A stretch of 64,000 bases of DNA from Escherichia phage SmurfNell, in the sequence record OR896824.1. The stretch is one strand, 5' to 3'. The notes beneath the pieces are model-generated. The model saw nothing but the letters and a program-made list of their open reading frames with translations. It searched no databases and was not told the origin of the DNA. The translations under genes and the position numbers were made by a program. Shown piece after piece: positions 41,924 through 63,586 of this stretch (position 1 is its first letter; every line of letters begins with the position of its first letter).

Positions 41924-42382
41924 TTAAGCTGGATATAGCTCGGCTTTGAAAGCAGCTCTAACTTCTATTGCCTCTTCTAACGAATTGCATTGTTGGTACT
42001 TACGAGTATTTCCTTTTTGCATAAGTACACAGTATTTTTCACCGCGCATATAGATATTAGATTCTCCTAACTTATTGTCCTTTCTCACATCTATATTATG
42101 CATTTGATCAGATCTATTGGAATCTTCTAGATTCTCTATGAAATTACAATCCTTAATTCTGTTCTTGTGGTCTATCTCCTCAGGAATATATCCTTTATGA
42201 TACAGAAAGACTAACTGATGTTCTCCCCATTTCTTGCCTTTGAAACCAATCCTGATATACCCTTTGTGCTTCCCACCCGCAAACTGCCCTATTAACCTCT
42301 TTTGGTTAGTTTTCCTCCATTTGAGGTGGCCAGTTTCTGGATCATATTCAAAGGCTTCTCTAACCTCTTCTTGAGTTATCAT
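41924..42382 (-). CDS. HNH-AP2 homing endonuclease
   Basis: YDPETGHLKWR...GYIRIGFKGKKWGEHQLVFLYHKGYIPEEIDHKNRIKDCNFIENL; paralogous to 51331 and 55539 ORFs. Confidence 0.75.
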   Translation of the reverse strand: MITQEEVREAFEYDPETGHLKWRKTNQKRLIGQFAGGKHKGYIRIGFKGKKWGEHQLVFLYHKGYIPEEIDHKNRIKDCNFIENLEDSNRSDQMHNIDVRKDNKLGESNIYMRGEKYCVLMQKGNTRKYQQCNSLEEAIEVRAAFKAELYPA

Positions 42383-42611
42383 CTTCTTTAATTAATTCTC
42401 CTAATTCCTTATAAACACGTTCTAACTCAAAAGGGATACGTAAGGATACTCGTACCTTACGTTGTTTTAATAGCCATATAGATACGTTCGGAATACCAGC
42501 CAATCTGGGAGGGACCACTCGGCATAGTTTCTCCGCAGTATCGTAAACAGAAGTTTTACGTTCTTTTACGTAAAACTTCCTTGTTTCCCACTTTTTATTC
42601 TTCGCTGTCAT
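42360..42611 (-). CDS. Hypothetical small basic protein
   Basis: 83 codons from ATG at 42611; overlaps the 3' end of the upstream helicase gene. Confidence 0.35.
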   Translation of the reverse strand: MTAKNKKWETRKFYVKERKTSVYDTAEKLCRVVPPRLAGIPNVSIWLLKQRKVRVSLRIPFELERVYKELGELIKEDDNSRRG

Positions 42612-45384
42612 TTCTAGCCCCCAATTCAGCAAGAGCTTCCTCATGCATCTGACGTTCTTCATCTGTCATAAACTTAACTGGAATCGGCATACATTCGATC
42701 TTACAGTAAGTTCTGTACCAGTCCACAATCTTTTCCGTATCCAGATCTTTACCGATACCCATCATGCCAAGATACATACGAGCATATTTTGGGTTAGCGC
42801 TCTGACCTGTCTTAAGGAAGAAATCCTTCTTCTTATTCTTAAGAGCTTCGATAAACGGTTTGATTGTTACGTTTGAACACTTTTTAATATCTTCCCAGAA
42901 CATGTCGTGCATCTTATGGAAGAATGCAGCTCTATCGTTTGGTTTATCCTTGATATACTGTTCAACGTGTTCCACTGTTACATCTTTAATAGAATCCAGA
43001 TGATAATAGCGAACCAGAAGCAATTTAGCTTCATAGGCATCTGCATGACGTGGTGCGCAATATTCAGGAGTTGAGTGCAAAATAGCTTTGATTCGCTCTT
43101 CTGTATACTCTTTGCCTGCACCTTCGATAGTTCCCCAGCTTTCACTGAAAATATCAATAGTTGCACCCTGATCAAGCAGATAATAACGCAAAGTACTAGT
43201 ATAGTTTCTGGACTCCAGTTCACGACGACGTGCATACAGCTGCTGAGCTAACTCAACCCAACCCTCATCAATATTATATTGCTCGGAACCCGCAGAAAAT
43301 CCACTCGTAGATTTATCAATAAAATAATAAATGTTCTGAGCACCACGGTCGCGCCTGATTGCTTGGAAACGCATGTTTGGCGCTTGGTTTGAGGTTCTAG
43401 TGATAACAAATACGTTATCAAAATAGTTAAAGTCAACGCCACTCGTTACAGATGGACTACATAACAAACAATCAATCTGTTGATCAATTAGCTCATTAGT
43501 AGTGTAATCCAGAATACGTCGGATATCTACATCAGACGTAGAGTTTGAGTGAATTTCTTTAACTAACGCACCAGTGTTACGACGTAACGCCATCCCCTTT
43601 TCATTCAGTTCATCTGGCCCACAGTCAGATACTAGGATTGATTTCTCCCCCATCTCTAGTGAAGTCTGGAGTGCGACCCAAATACTGGATTCATCAGGGA
43701 ACTCATATGCATGAGCTTTTGCCAGCATTTTACGGTGATGATTATAGAACGCGACCGGTTTATCAAAATCAATCAAAGAACCATAGGCTTCAATCGTTTC
43801 TGCACTGATATCACCATCAGATAAGATAACCGTTTTTGCAGTAATAAGAATATCGCGAAGAACCTGAATACATTCACGACGGTTTTTAACAACCGGGGCG
43901 AATAACAGATCATTCATTACTGCGTCACATTCATCAATAAAGATCGTATCAATCTGACCCACAAAGCTCTTGAACTTATGGATAGAGTGAATAGTTGAAG
44001 ACATACGATCAATAGCACCACGTTTGAAGTTCAGCATATCAACTGACTTATCATACTGACCAGCACCGAATTTCTTCGCGTTTGAAGATACAAGTGCCCT
44101 AGTATTCGTGATTGCAATAAAGTTTCCTGGAAGAACACCTGCATCTAGCCACTTAGTTACTGCTGTGGTTTTACCTGTACCAAGACTTGCCTTAACAAAT
44201 GTTAAATGTCCTTTTGGGGGTACAATGTTAATCTTCAAGTATGGAACTTCTGGCGGTGAATCTGTGTCCAGACGCTTTAGTGGTACACCTTTTAAGTTGG
44301 GTGGAATCTCACGTTTGGAGTTATTCACAAAGGCTTTTAGAGCCTGCTTACGACCGTTATTAAAGTAATCTTGAATATTACGACTATTATCTTTAGTTGC
44401 AATATATTCAGATAAAGCTGGTTTAATCTCACGTTCTAACCACGTAAAGTCAACACCATCTTCTAACGCTCTGTGATAAAGTTTTGGGATAATACGCAGG
44501 TACACCCCATCCTCAGCTTCTTCTAGTTCGCTGATGGTTTCTTCCACTTTATCAGATGCAGCCTTCTTGCCTTTAATTTGGTCAAGTAAGGAGTAGAATT
44601 CTTCTTTAAACTCACCTCTAGTTGTTTCAAAGTCAACTAGGTTATTGGGTAGATTCACTTTCGAACCCTTAACATACACAAGACGTGGTTTATTCTCCGC
44701 TTTAAACGGATCGACTATACCATCATCAAATAAGGGATCTGCGAAATAGTGAAGCTGAACAGAAGAATAATAAGCTAAGTCAGCAATATCAAAGCCATAC
44801 TTTTGCTTACTACTGTCATTGATGGATGTAAATAAGAATTTTAATTGCCCCTGCGTTACCTTGACATTAGATTCTAGCATTAAGTGCATTCGGATACCTG
44901 GTTTTAATCCAGCCGAAGACGATGCATGAGCAATAAACCCTGCATCAAGAGGAAACATATCCTCACTAATACTATTCAACATCTTAATAATATGACGTGC
45001 CATGCCAACAAGATTAAACTTGTCATAGCCACCAGTATCTACAATACCATCCACGTCCATAGCAATAATATGACTAGGATTGGATACGTTAAAGTTTCCC
45101 CTGGTACGACGCACATTATCTTTTGGAGCTAAACATTTACCACGAATAGCTACAATATGCGGGTCTTTGGTAAGACGACGCATGATAGGTAACATTTCAG
45201 CAAGGTTTTGCGGGTCAAGTTCTTCAAGTACATCAAATTTGAAGGGCATGGAAGCTGGTTTACCTTCTGGATGCTCTTTAGAGAATCGCTTTGCAAAGGT
45301 GTAATCTTCCACTTTGATCTCTTTCCAGATGCCAGTGGCTTTATCTCTGGAAAATCCTGCGTGACCTTGTAGGATTGAGAACAC
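42595..45384 (-). CDS. Origin-binding-type helicase with N-terminal primase-like region
   Basis: Walker A ASLGTGKTT, DExD box IFIDECDAV, QAIRRDRG; N-terminal HIIAMDVDG acidic motif; start set at GTG 45384 (AGGAG 8 nt upstream), ORF track extends to 45507. Confidence 0.6.
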   Translation of the reverse strand: MFSILQGHAGFSRDKATGIWKEIKVEDYTFAKRFSKEHPEGKPASMPFKFDVLEELDPQNLAEMLPIMRRLTKDPHIVAIRGKCLAPKDNVRRTRGNFNVSNPSHIIAMDVDGIVDTGGYDKFNLVGMARHIIKMLNSISEDMFPLDAGFIAHASSSAGLKPGIRMHLMLESNVKVTQGQLKFLFTSINDSSKQKYGFDIADLAYYSSVQLHYFADPLFDDGIVDPFKAENKPRLVYVKGSKVNLPNNLVDFETTRGEFKEEFYSLLDQIKGKKAASDKVEETISELEEAEDGVYLRIIPKLYHRALEDGVDFTWLEREIKPALSEYIATKDNSRNIQDYFNNGRKQALKAFVNNSKREIPPNLKGVPLKRLDTDSPPEVPYLKINIVPPKGHLTFVKASLGTGKTTAVTKWLDAGVLPGNFIAITNTRALVSSNAKKFGAGQYDKSVDMLNFKRGAIDRMSSTIHSIHKFKSFVGQIDTIFIDECDAVMNDLLFAPVVKNRRECIQVLRDILITAKTVILSDGDISAETIEAYGSLIDFDKPVAFYNHHRKMLAKAHAYEFPDESSIWVALQTSLEMGEKSILVSDCGPDELNEKGMALRRNTGALVKEIHSNSTSDVDIRRILDYTTNELIDQQIDCLLCSPSVTSGVDFNYFDNVFVITRTSNQAPNMRFQAIRRDRGAQNIYYFIDKSTSGFSAGSEQYNIDEGWVELAQQLYARRRELESRNYTSTLRYYLLDQGATIDIFSESWGTIEGAGKEYTEERIKAILHSTPEYCAPRHADAYEAKLLLVRYYHLDSIKDVTVEHVEQYIKDKPNDRAAFFHKMHDMFWEDIKKCSNVTIKPFIEALKNKKKDFFLKTGQSANPKYARMYLGMMGIGKDLDTEKIVDWYRTYCKIECMPIPVKFMTDEERQMHEEALAELGARNDSEE

Positions 45385-45880
45385 AACAATACTCCTATGT
45401 TGGTTATTCGGATATCTTTCTTTAGGACTATTCAAAAGAATAGAACAACTATTACTACCATTTACACAAACATTAATCATCATCAAGCAGTATGAATAAG
45501 TTATCATACCTCAGTGCTGCGCTCTCTTAACTCTTATCCAGATCAGAACCTAGGTCATTGGCCGCTAAGCCGATTCTGATTGCCCTCACTATCCTATTGG
45601 TAGGTGGCTACTGGACGTGTCACCATTCGCTGCTCTTTTCGTTCGCACCCCCATATAAAGCTCTGCCTATATAACGAGCTAAATATGCACGGTTTGGATT
45701 TACCTTTCCGAATTCAGGGTACGCAGATCACTTAATTGATAATTAACTAATGCAGTATAAACACTAGTAATAGTTAAAACAACCCTTAATGGGGCAGCCT
45801 AACTGTTCCGTATTGCGGATTGTAAACAAGAAAAATTAGCAAAATCAATTTTTACTAATGTCTCTCAATTCAATATAAAT

Positions 45881-45909
45881 ATTATATCAAGATTTTGAGC
45901 ATCCTGCAA
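45881..45909 (-). promoter_or_regulatory. Sigma70-type promoter with long leader
   Basis: Minus strand TTGCAG, 17-nt spacer, TATAAT, then ATTTATATTGAATTGAGAGAC; about 500 nt untranslated before helicase start. Confidence 0.5.
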
Positions 45910-45949
45910 GTAAAATTTTTCCGAAGGTGCTATCAGTGTCCTTGAGCAC

Positions 45950-45976
45950 AGAGAAAACCGAGTCATTTTGACTCGG
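45950..45976 (-). terminator. Rho-independent terminator
   Basis: CCGAGTCA-loop-TGACTCGG hairpin; minus strand followed by TTTTCTCTGTG. Confidence 0.6.
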
Positions 45977-46000
45977 TAATCAGGATTGAGCTAATGAAAA

Positions 46001-46396
46001 TCAATCATCATTTAGGCCTGGGACATAGATTCCAATGCGATTTAATTGACCTTTAGCTTCTTCGAGAATATCTTCGGTGTACTCCCAAATATCATCTTCT
46101 ACTTGCAAAAGATAAGGGGATTCACCAGTTTCGGGGTCACGTGTAATGGCTAAGCCACGTGGATGGAATATAGAGAAGTTGAGGGCAACAATCAAGCCCA
46201 TGCTGGACAATTCATTCCAGTCAGCTTCCCAACCATCATCTTCATCTTCGTCCACAAAGACACCTACACTAGGGTCTGTTACAGAAGTAAACGGAAATGT
46301 TACACTAACCTTGTCAACCCCCAACCAACGTGCAAGGAGCCCTTCAGCACGCTCTACCAAACTAGGATCTATCTGACGCCAAAATACTTGTTCCAT
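46001..46396 (-). CDS. Hypothetical protein, paralog B of tandem pair
   Basis: 131 aa; strong SD TAAGGAGG; core MGLIVALNFSIFHPRGLAITRDPETGESPYLLQV...IGIYVPGL aligns with upstream paralog. Confidence 0.6.
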   Translation of the reverse strand: MEQVFWRQIDPSLVERAEGLLARWLGVDKVSVTFPFTSVTDPSVGVFVDEDEDDGWEADWNELSSMGLIVALNFSIFHPRGLAITRDPETGESPYLLQVEDDIWEYTEDILEEAKGQLNRIGIYVPGLNDD

Positions 46397-46405
46397 TCTG
46401 CCTCC

Positions 46406-46834
46406 TTAAGCAGTTAAACCTGGGATCATATACCCGAAACGACGAAGTTTCTGAATCCCCTCATTTACTTCTTCGGGCGAATATGACCAGCCCTCACGTT
46501 CATTTACCTGGAAAGCAGGAGCTTCACCAGTGCGATAGTTTACAATAAGACGGTGATTTGCAGGCATAAACAGCTTATGGTTCAAGGCAAAAACCAGACC
46601 CATTTCATCTAGTTCTTTCCAGTCTACAATTTCTTCTACTCTCTCACCTAAATCCACGCTAACTCCAATACATGGAGCTTCCTCTAGTGGGCCTTTAAAG
46701 GATAGGAAGATATCGTTATTCTCACACCAAATCTTAAGCAGATTGATGGTTTCATTATACATACCATTAGGGAGAGAACGCCAGAAGTTGAGGAGCATAG
46801 GGTTTACCTCTTTCATGAAAAGATTATCGAACAT
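46406..46834 (-). CDS. Hypothetical protein, paralog A of tandem pair
   Basis: 142 aa; core MGLVFALNHKLFMPANHRLIVNYRTGEAPAFQV...FGYMIPGL; SD AAGGTG. Confidence 0.6.
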   Translation of the reverse strand: MFDNLFMKEVNPMLLNFWRSLPNGMYNETINLLKIWCENNDIFLSFKGPLEEAPCIGVSVDLGERVEEIVDWKELDEMGLVFALNHKLFMPANHRLIVNYRTGEAPAFQVNEREGWSYSPEEVNEGIQKLRRFGYMIPGLTA

Positions 46835-63147: not shown

Positions 63148-63527
63148 TAATTTAAAAGACTAGTAAATCGGTAGACGAAAGCCCAAGCATCTTACCTCGC
63201 AGCAGCGGTTGAAATACGAGGTTAAATAAGACCGCTGACCATACTATAAAGTATAATCTATTGGAGATTATGTTTATTACACCAGCCTCTTAAGCTGAAC
63301 TGTAAAAACGGTCGTTGGTAGTACCAACACAACTTCAAAGATCAACGCTCAAGTATGAAAGCTGAAAAGTTAAAAGAACTCAAACTTCTAACCTTCTAAA
63401 GCTAAAAGATGCAAAGTATTCGTTGATGATTCAAACCCTAGATCAAAGGTACATGGCTCATAAGATATGGCCTGTGGCGCCTCTAGGCTGTTTATCGGTT
63501 CACTAGTCTCTCAATTTAAAAATGTAT

Positions 63528-63556
63528 TTGCTAATTAGTTTAGTTTTCTATATAAT
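63528..63556 (+). promoter_or_regulatory. Sigma70-type promoter
   Basis: TTGCTA, 17-nt spacer, TATAAT, then ATATTTTTAAATTGATGAGACGAGG. Confidence 0.6.
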
Positions 63557-63586
63557 ATATTTTTAAATTGATGAGACGAGGCTATT

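What the first reader, a model, noticed from the sequence alone, without database searches (positions are those of the whole stretch)
45385..45880. About 500-bp untranslated region between a promoter and the origin-binding-type helicase gene
The promoter at 45881-45909 is followed by roughly 500 nt without any credible ORF before the helicase start (GTG 45384 with AGGAG). The region contains an AT-rich palindromic stretch (TTAATTGATAATTAA near 45732-45746) and GC-rich segments. Adjacent to an origin-binding-type helicase, this is a good candidate for a replication origin, a structured regulatory leader or an embedded ncRNA.
Basis: partly seen in the sequence, partly recalled or inferred. Interest (0 to 1): 0.5.

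Follow-up and report, generated by a model that had tools for sequence, protein, structure and literature searches.

The report
Structured leader RNA of T5-like phages
The ~490 bases between an early promoter and the phage's D2 replication-helicase gene encode no protein but an elaborately folded RNA that T5-like phages have preserved through many compensating mutations; no database or paper I could search describes it, and its job (controlling the helicase, acting as a free RNA, or priming replication) is still open.

Summary
The window is a T5-like phage with its genes on the minus strand. A terminator (45977-45957) is followed by a T5 early-type promoter (45909-45881). About 490 nt with no conserved ORF then precede the D2 helicase gene, which starts at GTG 45384 and not at ATG 45507. 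This is the longest ORF-free stretch in the 64 kb.

The region is not spacer. It folds far better than shuffled sequence (z -4.8), and only on the transcribed strand. The fold is preserved by compensatory base changes across Tequintavirus, Epseptimavirus, Sugarlandvirus and Pectobacterium phages, and recognisably in Providencia and Proteus phages. Against genuine T5 (93% identical) there are 7 double compensatory substitutions, where about 0.4 are expected.

The anatomy is a 5' hairpin, an invariant motif AUACGGAACAGUnnGGCUGC, a ~45-bp closing helix around a ~200-nt multi-helix core with an invariant GCUUAGCGGC hairpin, a 3' hairpin, and an A-rich linker to the ribosome-binding site.

Rfam 15 has no match, and I found no description in the literature searched. 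Origin hallmarks are absent (no iterons, no DnaA-box enrichment, no skew switch). The AT-rich "palindrome" is simply one strand of the closing helix.

Best reading: a new structured RNA family made as the leader of the D2 mRNA. Its function is unproven.

The parts
45957..45977 (-). Intrinsic terminator ending the upstream DUF7415 gene pair. It isolates the RNA's own transcription unit.
   Evidence: 9-bp, GC-rich stem followed by a T run. Annotated as a terminator in T5 NC_005859 and in Klebsiella phage Spivey.
45881..45909 (-). Sigma-70 promoter of the T5 early class: TTGCAG, 17-nt spacer, TGaTATAAT, followed by an ATATT-type discriminator. Predicted transcription start is near 45874.
   Evidence: Sequence read directly. 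The -10 lies 483-509 nt before the D2 start in five clades, and homing-endonuclease cassettes bring a replacement promoter at the same distance. Annotated in T5. The ATATT discriminator is reported as typical of T5 early promoters (PMC7472727).
45385..45874 (-). The structured, non-coding RNA as a whole. It is the leader of the D2 transcript, about 490 nt.
   Evidence: z = -4.77. No conserved ORF. With the window's own MFE structure mapped on 7 sequences, 72.7% of cells pair against 38-44% when partners are slid, and 83 pairs change on both sides against 25-36. G-U 174 against A-C 48, and sense MFE -141.5 against antisense -106.7 kcal/mol.
45819..45874 (-). P1, the 5' hairpin (GAGAGAC-AUUAGUAAAA ... 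UUUUGCUAAU-UUUUUCU). The invariant 5' UUGAGAG marks the left edge of conservation.
   Evidence: MFE helix. Five pairs change on both sides (helix 2). Different stem sequences occur at the same place in Sugarland, DU_PP_V, My1 and Priunavirus. Homing-endonuclease cassette junctions fall at GAGAGAC.
45789..45813 (-). Invariant motif 1, AUACGGAACAGUUAGGCUGCCCCAU. It may form a small hairpin, CAG-UNNGG-CUG.
   Evidence: Invariant block in alignment A2. Unique in the window. It was used as an anchor that recovered only T5-like contigs in the viral and metagenome collections, apart from a few unrelated matches.
45721..45776 (-). 5' strand of the long closing helix P2 (segments a-c).
   Evidence: Pairs with 45446-45523. 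In helices 5-7, 33 of 56 pairs change on both sides. A homologous helix with a different sequence is found in every clade. The inverted repeat was detected at DNA level.
45446..45523 (-). 3' strand of closing helix P2. It is interrupted by hairpin P8 (45487-45512).
   Evidence: Double compensatory changes against the T5 clade occur at 45755/45467, 45723/45520 and 45509/45490.
45524..45720 (-). GC-richer multi-helix core. It holds P5 (45652-45687), P6 (45629-45649) and the P7 three-way junction (45536-45616).
   Evidence: Helices. The P7 stems differ between clades: GUCCAG/CUGGAU, GUACAG/CUGUAU, AGCAGC/GCUGU, CCUCAAU/AUUGAGG and others. Length is conserved although identity falls to 35% against the T5_ev212 group.
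45542..45580 (-). P7b hairpin: a 9-bp stem, the invariant apical GGCUUAGCGGCC (45560-45571), and a 9-nt 3' bulge.
   Evidence: Eight or more different stem sequences surround an invariant apex. Covariance model R1 scores 24.6-39.1 bits on the eleven sequences it was built from, which include Providencia and Proteus phages; these match by construction. Double changes occur at 45579/45543 and 45578/45544.
45428..45443 (-). P9, a small hairpin (CUAUUC-UUUU-GAAUAG) just after the closing helix.
   Evidence: Covarying versions are CUAUCC/GAUAG in Sugarland and CUUUCC/GGAAAG in DU_PP_V.
45385..45427 (-). A-rich linker carrying the ribosome-binding site AGGAG (45392-45396), ahead of the GTG start (45382-45384).
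   Evidence: In the window's MFE structure the ribosome-binding site pairs with UCCUA at 45423-45427, but this pairing has no covariation support.
42595..45384 (-). D2 gene: a 929-aa bipolar SF2 helicase, annotated as 'replication origin binding protein' (T5.108).
   Evidence: Pfam Herpes_ori_bp matches aa 391-533. PHROG 3712. The T5 D2 biochemistry paper reports the same Pfam domain at aa 392-532 (PMC3632103). T5 annotation.

Best explanation
The interval is the gene for a large, elaborately folded RNA of about 490 nt. It is a previously unannotated RNA family of T5-like phages. Host RNA polymerase transcribes it from an early promoter, and it continues, with no terminator, into the D2 helicase gene. 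It is therefore born as the 5' leader of the D2 mRNA.

**Shown:**
- The fold consists of a 5' hairpin, an invariant single-stranded or hairpin motif, a ~45-bp closing helix that insulates a ~200-nt multi-helix core carrying the invariant GCUUAGCGGC hairpin, and a 3' hairpin.
- It folds on the transcribed strand only.
- It is maintained by compensatory evolution.
- It is non-coding.
- It sits directly 5' of D2 in every clade that has it.

**Inferred (about 40-50% likely):** it works in cis and after transcription. The invariant loops are contact sites for a protein or for the ribosome, most simply an early phage protein such as D2 itself. The compact fold at the base of the closing helix, next to the A-rich linker, the ribosome-binding site and the weak GUG start, sets how much of the replication-initiator helicase is made. 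It also shields 490 nt of untranslated RNA from Rho and RNases.

The long, nearly continuous double helix is a plausible RNase III substrate. Cutting there would release the core as a stable RNA and leave a short-leader D2 mRNA. That is a prediction, not a result.
For: **Structure**
- z = -4.77.
- RNAalifold on 7 sequences gives 60 consensus pairs, 35 of them with compensatory changes.
- The window's single-sequence structure, tested on relatives, shows 72.7% pairing against 38-44% when partners are slid. 83 pairs change on both sides against 25-36, and 0 of 500 shuffles reach any of the measures.
- Within the unambiguous 93%-identity alignment to the genuine-T5 clade, 7 pairs changed on both sides and stayed paired. 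The random expectation is 0.38, with a maximum of 4 in 20,000 trials. Only 6 pairs are broken against 13 expected.
- The same helices are found at homologous positions with different sequences in six clades.

**RNA strand**
- G-U pairs far outnumber A-C, and the sense strand is 35 kcal/mol more stable than the antisense.

**Transcription**
- The extended -10 promoter is conserved at a fixed distance. HNH cassettes supply a substitute promoter at the same spacing.
- A terminator lies upstream and none lies between the RNA and D2.

**Non-coding, and the true D2 start**
-.

**Linkage to D2**
- The gap before D2 is 590-710 nt from the upstream gene's stop to the D2 start in phiR2-01, T5_ev212, Sugarlandvirus, Myunavirus and Priunavirus.
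- The promoter-to-start leader itself is 477-503 nt in the main clades.
- The motif-to-start distance is conserved to within about 15 nt in five clades.

**Not a known family**
-.
Against: - No pairing between the RNA and the ribosome-binding site or start codon is supported by covariation. The best partner of the translation start region differs from clade to clade.
- Proteus phages Stubb and PM135 have a consensus promoter (TTGACA, 17-nt spacer, TATAAT) between the RNA and D2. There, D2 can be expressed without the leader.
- The core is larger and more intricate than any cis-regulator needs, and it is insulated by a long helix, as excised stable RNAs are.
- The core has been exchanged between distant phages while the flanks and D2 stayed put. 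No D2 segment co-varies with the core type.
- No expression, processing or binding data were available.
Confidence: 0.45

Rival explanations
1. It is a stand-alone, trans-acting stable RNA or ribonucleoprotein scaffold. It happens to be co-transcribed with D2 and is cut out of the precursor, for example by RNase III at the closing helix. Comparable cases are 6S RNA processed from the ssrS-ygfA transcript and OLE RNA co-transcribed with its partner protein genes. Its function could lie in replication, host takeover or anti-defence, and might be catalytic.
For: - Size and complexity: ten or more helices and two invariant motifs.
- A closing helix of about 45 bp insulates the core.
- Proteus phages have an independent D2 promoter downstream of the RNA.
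- The core behaves as an exchangeable module. It is 35% identical between phages whose D2 genes are 83% identical, and the T5_ev212-type core is closest to that of a Pectobacterium phage.
- Aeromonas phage TS3 has about 1.3 kb of non-coding sequence with a GCUUAGCGG-loop hairpin. A terminator-like hairpin read by eye precedes D2, but the scanner did not list it.
Against: - No terminator or recognisable processing signal defines a 3' end in the window.
- The position directly 5' of D2 never varies.
- The TS3 match is marginal (13.7 bits, E about 0.07).
- No target or partner can be named.
Confidence: 0.28
2. It is the replication origin, or part of one, and works through its transcript. The early promoter fires into an AT-rich stretch. 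The folded RNA forms a persistent hybrid or is processed into a primer, as ColE1 RNA II, the T4 ori(uvsY)/ori(34) R-loops and the T7 primary origin do. The adjacent gene supplies the initiator helicase D2.
For: - It lies next to the gene for the presumed initiator, which the authors of PMC3632103 suggest has a role in initiation.
- A promoter is followed by about 60 nt at 25% GC.
- The promoter-to-gene distance of about 500 nt is conserved, and the fold is specific, as in RNA II.
- The locus lies near the middle of the T5 genome, at 59.0-59.5 kb of 121.75 kb. This fits my recollection of the 1976 electron-microscopy study, which I could not read.
Against: - No iterons, tandem repeats or DnaA-box enrichment.
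- No GC-skew inflection. Skew switches at about 24 kb and 51-52 kb, together with gene orientation.
- No promoter-like site on the opposite strand inside 45385-45880 that could make a regulatory antisense RNA.
- The AT-rich segment is itself a covarying RNA hairpin, P1.
- Recombitron editing shows one dominant lagging strand across T5, which the authors interpret as unidirectional replication from one end (PMC10055335).
Confidence: 0.12
3. It is a selfish or decaying element with no function for the phage. Candidates are a miniature inverted-repeat element, the remnant of an intron, or a homing-endonuclease landing pad.
For: - A long inverted repeat flanks the core.
- The locus attracts mobile DNA. 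HNH cassettes sit just upstream, and some phages carry a 97-nt insert with an 8-bp direct repeat.
Against: - It is single copy.
- It is present in every clade, with no empty site.
- The arms evolve by compensatory changes, as an RNA helix does, rather than being conserved as ends recognised by a transposase.
- It interrupts no gene, and no intron model matches.
Confidence: 0.03
4. Part of it is coding: D2 starts at ATG 45507, as many GenBank records annotate, or small ORFs on either strand are real genes.
For: - The ORF is open from 45507 in this lineage.
- Sw2 and other records annotate that start. GEC_vB_N7 annotates two small opposite-strand ORFs.
Against: - The extension is absent or blocked by stop codons in most relatives.
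- Homologues start at the GTG/ATG equivalent to 45384, with a ribosome-binding site.
- The extension translates to low-complexity sequence.
- No small ORF is conserved.
Confidence: 0.01

Closest known systems
ColE1-type plasmid RNA II (pre-primer RNA)
   Same: A structured transcript of about 500 nt made from a sigma-70 promoter and associated with replication functions. A specific fold and length are conserved while the sequence drifts.
   Different: - No antisense RNA I-type promoter.
- No mapped origin or RNase H site.
- The transcript continues into a translated gene.
- No Rfam match to any plasmid replication RNA.
Large structured bacterial and phage ncRNAs of unknown or recently found function (OLE, GOLLD, ROOL, raiA, HEARO/omega RNA)
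   Same: Several hundred nucleotides, many covarying helices, a few invariant loops, sometimes co-transcribed with a partner protein gene, and often found in phages.
   Different: No sequence or structure similarity: none of the 4227 Rfam 15 models reaches even E = 10 on this strand. The distribution is limited to enterobacterial-type Demerecviridae.
Translational operators and leaders of replication genes (T4 gene 43 and gene 32 operators; IncFII CopT and IncB/IncI-alpha repA/repZ leader pseudoknots; the phage P4 CI RNA made from the leader of the primase-helicase operon)
   Same: An RNA element in the leader of a replication-initiator gene. It is read from an early promoter and has a weak start codon.
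   Different: - These elements are tens to about 150 nt with 1-3 hairpins, while this one has ten or more helices.
- No antisense partner.
- No covariation-supported pairing to the ribosome-binding site.
- The Rfam scans, which I recall include a C4/CI antisense RNA model, found no match.
RNase III processing stalks (flanks of 16S/23S rRNA; T7 early mRNA sites)
   Same: A long, nearly continuous double helix formed by sequences several hundred nt apart and enclosing a folded RNA. P2 has about 38 bp in three coaxial segments.
   Different: Cleavage was not tested. The enclosed RNA is not rRNA or tRNA.
T4 ori(uvsY)/ori(34) and the T7 primary origin (promoter plus an AT-rich unwinding element, with the transcript used as primer)
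   Same: A phage promoter firing into an AT-rich segment next to replication genes.
   Different: Here the AT-rich segment is a conserved RNA hairpin and is followed by about 400 nt of conserved RNA structure. There is no evidence of origin activity.

Membership tests
Any described RNA family (Rfam 15, including riboswitches, group I/II introns, RNase P, tmRNA, 6S, and, as I recall, GOLLD, ROOL, OLE and C4/CI RNA) | The covariance-model score reaches the family's gathering threshold. | tested here: not met
   No match in the whole window at gathering thresholds. At E up to 10 on 45200-46100 there was only one junk hit on the other strand. No hit was found on the homologous leaders of six relatives or on six distant loci. 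ARAGORN found no tRNA or tmRNA.
Structured functional RNA (generic) | Base pairs are maintained by compensatory substitutions beyond what relatedness gives. | tested here: met
   seven double changes against 0.38 expected, and slid-partner controls at 25-36 against 83.
Structured functional RNA (generic) | The fold is specific to the transcribed strand. | tested here: met
   G-U 174 against A-C 48, and MFE -141.5 against -106.7 kcal/mol.
Cis-regulatory mRNA leader | It is co-transcribed with the regulated gene: promoter upstream, no terminator in between, conserved synteny. | tested here: met
   The exception is the Proteus phages, which have an extra promoter before D2.
Cis-regulatory mRNA leader | A conserved alternative pairing or occlusion of the ribosome-binding site or start codon, or an attenuator terminator. 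| tested here: inconclusive
   No intrinsic terminator lies in the leader. The ribosome-binding site is paired in the MFE structures, but with a different partner in each clade and without covariation.
Replication origin (iteron / DnaA-box / unwinding-element type) | Repeated initiator-binding sites. | tested here: not met
   No direct-repeat family and no tandem repeat in 45385-45880. DnaA-box-like 9-mers are at chance level: 72 found against 78 expected in the window.
Replication origin (iteron / DnaA-box / unwinding-element type) | An AT-rich unwinding element. | tested here: inconclusive
   GC is 25-28% at 45800-45899 and 45400-45499. However, these stretches are covarying RNA helices, P1 and P2.
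Replication origin (iteron / DnaA-box / unwinding-element type) | A strand-composition switch or measured origin activity. | tested here: not met
   There is no GC-skew inflection at the locus. Origin activity itself cannot be tested here. Published strand-bias data point to unidirectional replication from one end.
ColE1 RNA II-type primer | An antisense regulatory RNA promoter within the first ~110 nt, and RNase H processing at the origin. | tested here: not met
   No promoter-like site on the plus strand inside 45385-45880. RNase H processing cannot be tested with these tools.
Group I intron or homing-endonuclease intron | It interrupts a gene, has a conserved catalytic core, and carries the endonuclease ORF in a peripheral loop. 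| tested here: not met
   It lies between a terminator and a gene start. No intron model matches. The HNH cassettes lie upstream of the RNA's promoter, not inside the fold.
Miniature inverted-repeat transposable element | Multiple copies, presence/absence polymorphism, and conserved terminal repeats. | tested here: not met
   It is single copy and present in all clades. The arms differ between clades but stay complementary.
Protein-coding sequence | An ORF conserved in frame and position among relatives. | tested here: not met

The most novel reading that the evidence does not exclude
The RNA is a working partner of the D2 initiator helicase in starting T5 DNA replication. In this reading it is a ribozyme-sized RNA that marks or primes the origin through a persistent RNA-DNA hybrid, which would make it a lytic-phage counterpart of ColE1 RNA II. 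Alternatively it forms a ribonucleoprotein with D2. The exchangeable 'core types' would then define replicon specificity. This would locate the long-unmapped T5 origin and add a new class of large functional RNA.
Probability: 0.12. Interest if true: 0.85.

Novelty: new member of a known kind. Interest (0 to 1): 0.65.

Why it matters
T5 has been a model phage for seventy years, and its relatives are widely used in phage therapy and in research on bacterial defence. Despite this, the longest non-coding stretch in its replication region is unannotated.

Conserved RNAs of 400 nt or more with many covarying helices are rare. Several that have been characterised turned out to be ribozymes, ribonucleoprotein scaffolds or self-assembling RNAs.

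This one sits at the head of the replication operon, directly before the presumed initiator helicase, in a phage whose origin and initiation mechanism are still unknown. That makes three concrete hypotheses directly testable with standard T5 genetics: control of D2 dosage, a processed stable RNA, or a primer/R-loop origin.

There is also a practical point. Many GenBank records mis-start D2 41 codons too early or annotate spurious ORFs inside the RNA.

Tried and rejected
- **Known RNA families.** Four Rfam scans and ARAGORN found nothing.
- **Structure-aware alignment.** MAFFT Q-INS-i is not installed. I used anchored comparisons, helix searches and a covariance model instead.
- **Family members outside T5-like phages.**
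  - The two-motif DNA pattern found only the T5-like contigs already held in IMG/VR.
  - In metagenomes it found 8 T5-like contigs and 5 unrelated matches.
  - In genomes it found 4 hits. The two tested in the model search (L118 and, from the metagenome set, L104) scored at background; the four genome hits were never run through nhmmer and look like chance matches.
- **Distant Demerecviridae.**
  - The P7b covariance model finds nothing in Vibrio phages and only a marginal hit in Aeromonas TS3.
  - Fold z-scores of their upstream gaps are unremarkable. The z-scores of true members Sugarland and My1 are also weak (-1.0 and -1.9), so z-score alone is not diagnostic.
- **Pairing with the translation start.** No conserved pairing was found between the leader and the ribosome-binding site or start codon. 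The partners are inconsistent. A 6-bp match between the invariant GAACA and the start-codon region UGUUC exists, but the protein's Met-Phe start constrains that sequence, so I do not rely on it.
- **Pseudoknots.** I found no covariation between the invariant loops and bulges.
- **Co-variation of D2 with RNA core type.** None was found.
- **Origin hallmarks.** Absent.
- **D2 N-terminal domain.**
  - There was no PDB or Pfam hit.
  - The AEP-primase idea (conserved DxD and H) therefore stays untested.
- **Literature.** Nine accepted searches found no description of this RNA. The 1976 origin-mapping paper is not held.
- **A naming error of mine, corrected.** Locus L005, 'T5_ev212', is not genuine T5. 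Real T5 (NC_005859) carries the window-type core.
Full report
**What the window is**

The 751 bases around the finding are 100% identical to a deposited T5-like phage genome and 98-99% identical to many Salmonella and Escherichia Epseptimavirus genomes. In all, 537 phage records match. Genes in this part of the window run on the minus strand.

The gene downstream of the finding is the homologue of T5 gene D2 (T5.108), a 929-aa protein annotated 'replication origin binding protein'. Pfam Herpes_ori_bp matches residues 391-533, and PHROG 3712 matches end to end. The published biochemical study of T5 D2, a bipolar SF2 helicase proposed to act in replication initiation, reports the same Pfam domain at residues 392-532 (PMC3632103).

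**Checking the observation**

Reading the minus strand gives the following order:

- The upstream gene ends at 46001.
- A 9-bp GC-rich hairpin with a T run follows at 45977-45957.
- Next comes TTGCAG (45909-45904), a 17-nt spacer, and TGaTATAAT (45889-45881).
- No ORF follows until AGGAG (45396-45392) and GTG (45384).

The T5 reference records annotate the same terminator, promoter and D2 start, and nothing in between. The promoter carries the ATATT-type discriminator reported for T5 early promoters (PMC7472727).

The alternative start at ATG 45507 exists only in this lineage. In the genuine-T5 clade, phiR2-01, Sugarlandvirus, DU_PP_V, My1, Proteus and Providencia phages there is either no in-frame start upstream or a stop codon within 0-26 codons. 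All of them begin Met-Phe-Ser/Thr-Ile at the equivalent ATG or GTG, behind a ribosome-binding site.

The palindrome TTAATT-GAT-AATTAA is at 45732-45746, and the centre is GC-richer than the flanks. With D2 started at 45384, 45390-46000 is the longest stretch in the 64 kb without any ORF of 45 codons or more in six frames. No ORF in the leader is conserved between clades.

**It is a conserved, folded RNA**

*Thermodynamics and comparative layout.* The transcribed strand folds at -141.5 kcal/mol, against -115.0 +/- 5.6 for dinucleotide shuffles (z = -4.77). The opposite strand reaches only -106.7.

A long gap before D2 is conserved. It is 590-710 nt from the stop of the upstream gene to the D2 start in phiR2-01, T5_ev212, Klebsiella phage Spivey, Pectobacterium phage My1 and Providencia phage PSTCR5. 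From the -10 hexamer to the start codon, the leader is 477-503 nt in the main clades.

Sequence identity in the leader falls much faster than in D2, yet a few blocks never change. These are the 5' UUGAGAG, AUACGGAACAGUnnGGCUGC and GCUUAGCGGC.

*Covariation across clades.* RNAalifold on seven sequences from five clades predicts 60 consensus pairs, 35 with compensatory changes.

As a test that does not derive the structure from the relatives, I mapped the window's own minimum-energy structure onto that alignment:

| Measure | Window structure | Partners slid 1-3 columns |
|---|---|---|
| Cells forming a standard pair | 72.7% | 38-44% |
| Pairs changed on both sides | 83 | 25-36 |
| Covariation score | 0.33 | 0.10-0.14 |

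None of 500 column shuffles reaches any of the measures.

*Covariation at short range.* The cleanest evidence comes from the comparison with the genuine-T5 clade, where alignment is unambiguous (93% identity, 35 substitutions).

- Seven base pairs changed on both sides and stayed paired. They lie in P2a, P2c, P7, P7a, P7b (two pairs) and P8.
- Six pairs changed on one side and stayed paired.
- Only six pairs broke.

Randomly placed substitutions with the same transition bias give 0.38 double-kept pairs on average, never more than 4 in 20,000 trials, and 13 broken pairs.

*Same helices, different sequences.* Helix-by-helix searches at homologous positions find P2a, P2c, P7 and P7b in every one of six clades, with different sequences. 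For P7 these include GUCCAG/CUGGAU, GUACAG/CUGUAU, AGCAGC/GCUGU and CCUCAAU/AUUGAGG.

*Strand.* G-U pairs (174) far outnumber A-C (48), so the fold belongs to the transcribed strand. The long inverted repeat seen at DNA level has 287 nt between its arms. In my judgement that is too far apart for a cruciform to form in duplex DNA. RNA is therefore the molecule that folds.

**Anatomy (minus strand, window coordinates)**

| Element | Coordinates | Notes |
|---|---|---|
| Predicted start | about 45874 | |
| P1, an AU-rich hairpin | 45874-45819 | |
| Invariant motif 1 | 45813-45789 | |
| Closing helix P2 | 45776-45721 with 45523-45446 | three coaxial segments, about 38 bp |
| P8 hairpin | 45512-45487 | carried within the 3' strand of P2 |
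| Core | 45720-45524 | |
| P5 | 45687-45652 | |
| P6 | 45649-45629 | |
| P7 junction | 45616-45536 | closes P7a and P7b |
| P7b apex | 45571-45560 | the invariant GGCUUAGCGGCC |
| P9 hairpin | 45443-45428 | |
| A-rich linker | 45427-45385 | 43 nt, with the ribosome-binding site |

It is not palindromic in the T5_ev212 group or other clades.

Only helices with comparative support should be trusted. The details of the core between P2c and P5 remain uncertain.

**Distribution**

A covariance model of P7b scores 24.6-39.1 bits on the eleven sequences it was built from. These include Providencia phages (Priunavirus) and Proteus phage Stubb, and they match by construction. The model gives one marginal hit in Aeromonas phage TS3 (13.7 bits, E about 0.07) and nothing in Vibrio T5-like phages.

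The two-motif pattern recovered T5-like contigs in viral, metagenome and genome collections, plus a few unrelated hits that look like chance matches.

Rfam 15 has no matching family, in the window or in six relatives, even at permissive thresholds. Nine accepted literature searches found no description.

**What it does: shown and inferred**

*Shown:* it is a non-coding, strand-specific RNA fold under purifying selection. It lies behind a conserved early promoter, has no terminator before D2, and is always directly 5' of D2.

*Inferred:* it is made as the leader of the D2 mRNA.

Three mechanisms compete.

*(i) A cis-acting leader that sets D2 output (my preferred reading, about 45%).* It is necessarily part of the D2 transcript. 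The start codon is a weak GUG. The spacing to the start is conserved to within about 15 nt in five clades. In addition, 490 nt of untranslated RNA needs protection from Rho and RNases.

Three things count against this reading.

- No pairing to the ribosome-binding site is supported by covariation.
- Proteus phages have an independent consensus promoter 45 nt before D2.
- The RNA is far more elaborate than known operators.

*(ii) A processed, trans-acting RNA or ribonucleoprotein (about 28%).* The ~45-bp closing helix insulates the core as processing stalks do, and should be an RNase III substrate.

The core also behaves as a module. Between this phage and the T5_ev212/fp01/OSYSP group, the first 104 nt are 99% identical and D2 is 83% identical. 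The core, in contrast, is only 35% identical and is closest to that of a Pectobacterium phage.

*(iii) An origin or primer RNA (about 12%).* It is attractive because of the neighbouring initiator gene, the promoter followed by an AT-rich segment, and the mid-genome position.

However, iterons, DnaA boxes, a skew switch and an antisense promoter are all absent. The AT-rich segment is itself a covarying hairpin. [quoted passage not shown]

Selfish-element and coding explanations are essentially excluded.

**Comparison with known systems**

It works most like other large structured RNAs that are co-transcribed with a partner gene, or like plasmid and phage replication-gene leaders. It is a member of none of them, because every family-level test that could be run failed (see the membership table).

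I therefore class it as a new member of a known kind: a new structured RNA family, probably a leader or ncRNA. I do not class it as categorically new.

**Verdict**

The 'untranslated region' is a conserved RNA of about 490 nt with ten or more helices, in a classical model phage, and it is not in Rfam.

Interest is 0.65.

The most novel reading still open is an RNA partner or primer for D2 in replication initiation, with probability about 0.12.

Noticed in passing
L004 (phiR2-01) leader nt 46-142; also L025, L027, L047. The equivalent window position is about 45828, between P1 and motif 1.: Some phages carry a 97-nt insert (89 nt plus an 8-nt direct repeat, TTTTTCTT). It is 96-100% identical in phages whose leader cores are only about 65% identical. 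It occurs only at this locus and is absent from the window. It looks like a small mobile or recombining insert that the RNA tolerates.
   Followed up: partly
L003 (Salmonella phage bobsandoy) 1834-2142; also L021, L024, L034. This corresponds to the window just upstream of 45867.: An HNH homing-endonuclease gene with its own TTGCAA-17-TATAAT promoter replaces the native promoter. The junction falls exactly at GAGAGAC, the first conserved bases of the RNA, and the promoter-to-gene distance is preserved (503-506 nt).
   Followed up: partly
window 45524-45720, compared with L005, L026-L036 and L041: The RNA core is mosaic. The T5_ev212/fp01/OSYSP group shares 99% of the first 104 nt and 83% of D2 with this phage, but only 35% of the core. 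Its core is closest (0.57) to that of Pectobacterium phage DU_PP_V. Genuine T5 has the window-type core. No D2 segment co-varies with core type. This is unexplained.
   Followed up: partly
window 63148-63562 (+): This is the second-largest ORF-free stretch of the window (415 nt). It folds with z = -3.4 into a structure closed by a long-range helix, and it ends in an early-type promoter-like sequence. It is 92-100% conserved in about 440 T5-like genomes and lies next to a tail-fibre gene. It may be another structured non-coding element.
   Followed up: partly
L043/L044 (Proteus phages Stubb and PM135), 45 nt before D2: A perfect-consensus promoter (TTGACA, 17-nt spacer, TATAAT) lies between the structured RNA and D2. 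In these phages D2 need not be translated from the long leader.
   Followed up: no
L012 (Aeromonas phage vB_AdhS_TS3) 270-1530: About 1.3 kb of non-coding DNA lies before D2. It contains a hairpin, CCCGAAAA-GCUUAGCGG-UUUUUCGGG, and a terminator-like hairpin read by eye at about 1484-1525. It may be a larger, separately terminated relative of the RNA. Vibrio phage JSF10 also has a gap of about 1.1 kb.
   Followed up: partly
window 45385-45507, and GenBank records MH631454 and MW006481: Many deposited genomes start D2 at the upstream ATG, adding 41 spurious codons. Others annotate small opposite-strand ORFs (gp136c, gp137c) or a 33-aa ORF over the promoter. These are probably annotation artefacts inside the RNA gene.
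   Followed up: yes
window 46001-46834 (-): The two genes just upstream are paralogues, each with two DUF7415 repeats (PHROG 2502, function unknown). One homologue is labelled 'RNA-binding protein' in Klebsiella phage Spivey and 'exonuclease' in T5_ev212. There is no evidence either way for a link with the RNA.
   Followed up: no
hit H1 (MG065642): The record with 100% identity is named 'Campylobacter phage A148'. All close relatives infect Salmonella or Escherichia, so the host label looks doubtful.
   Followed up: no
window 41924-42382 (-): A free-standing HNH endonuclease gene lies two ORFs downstream of D2. This is another sign that the replication module is a hot spot for homing elements.
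   Followed up: no
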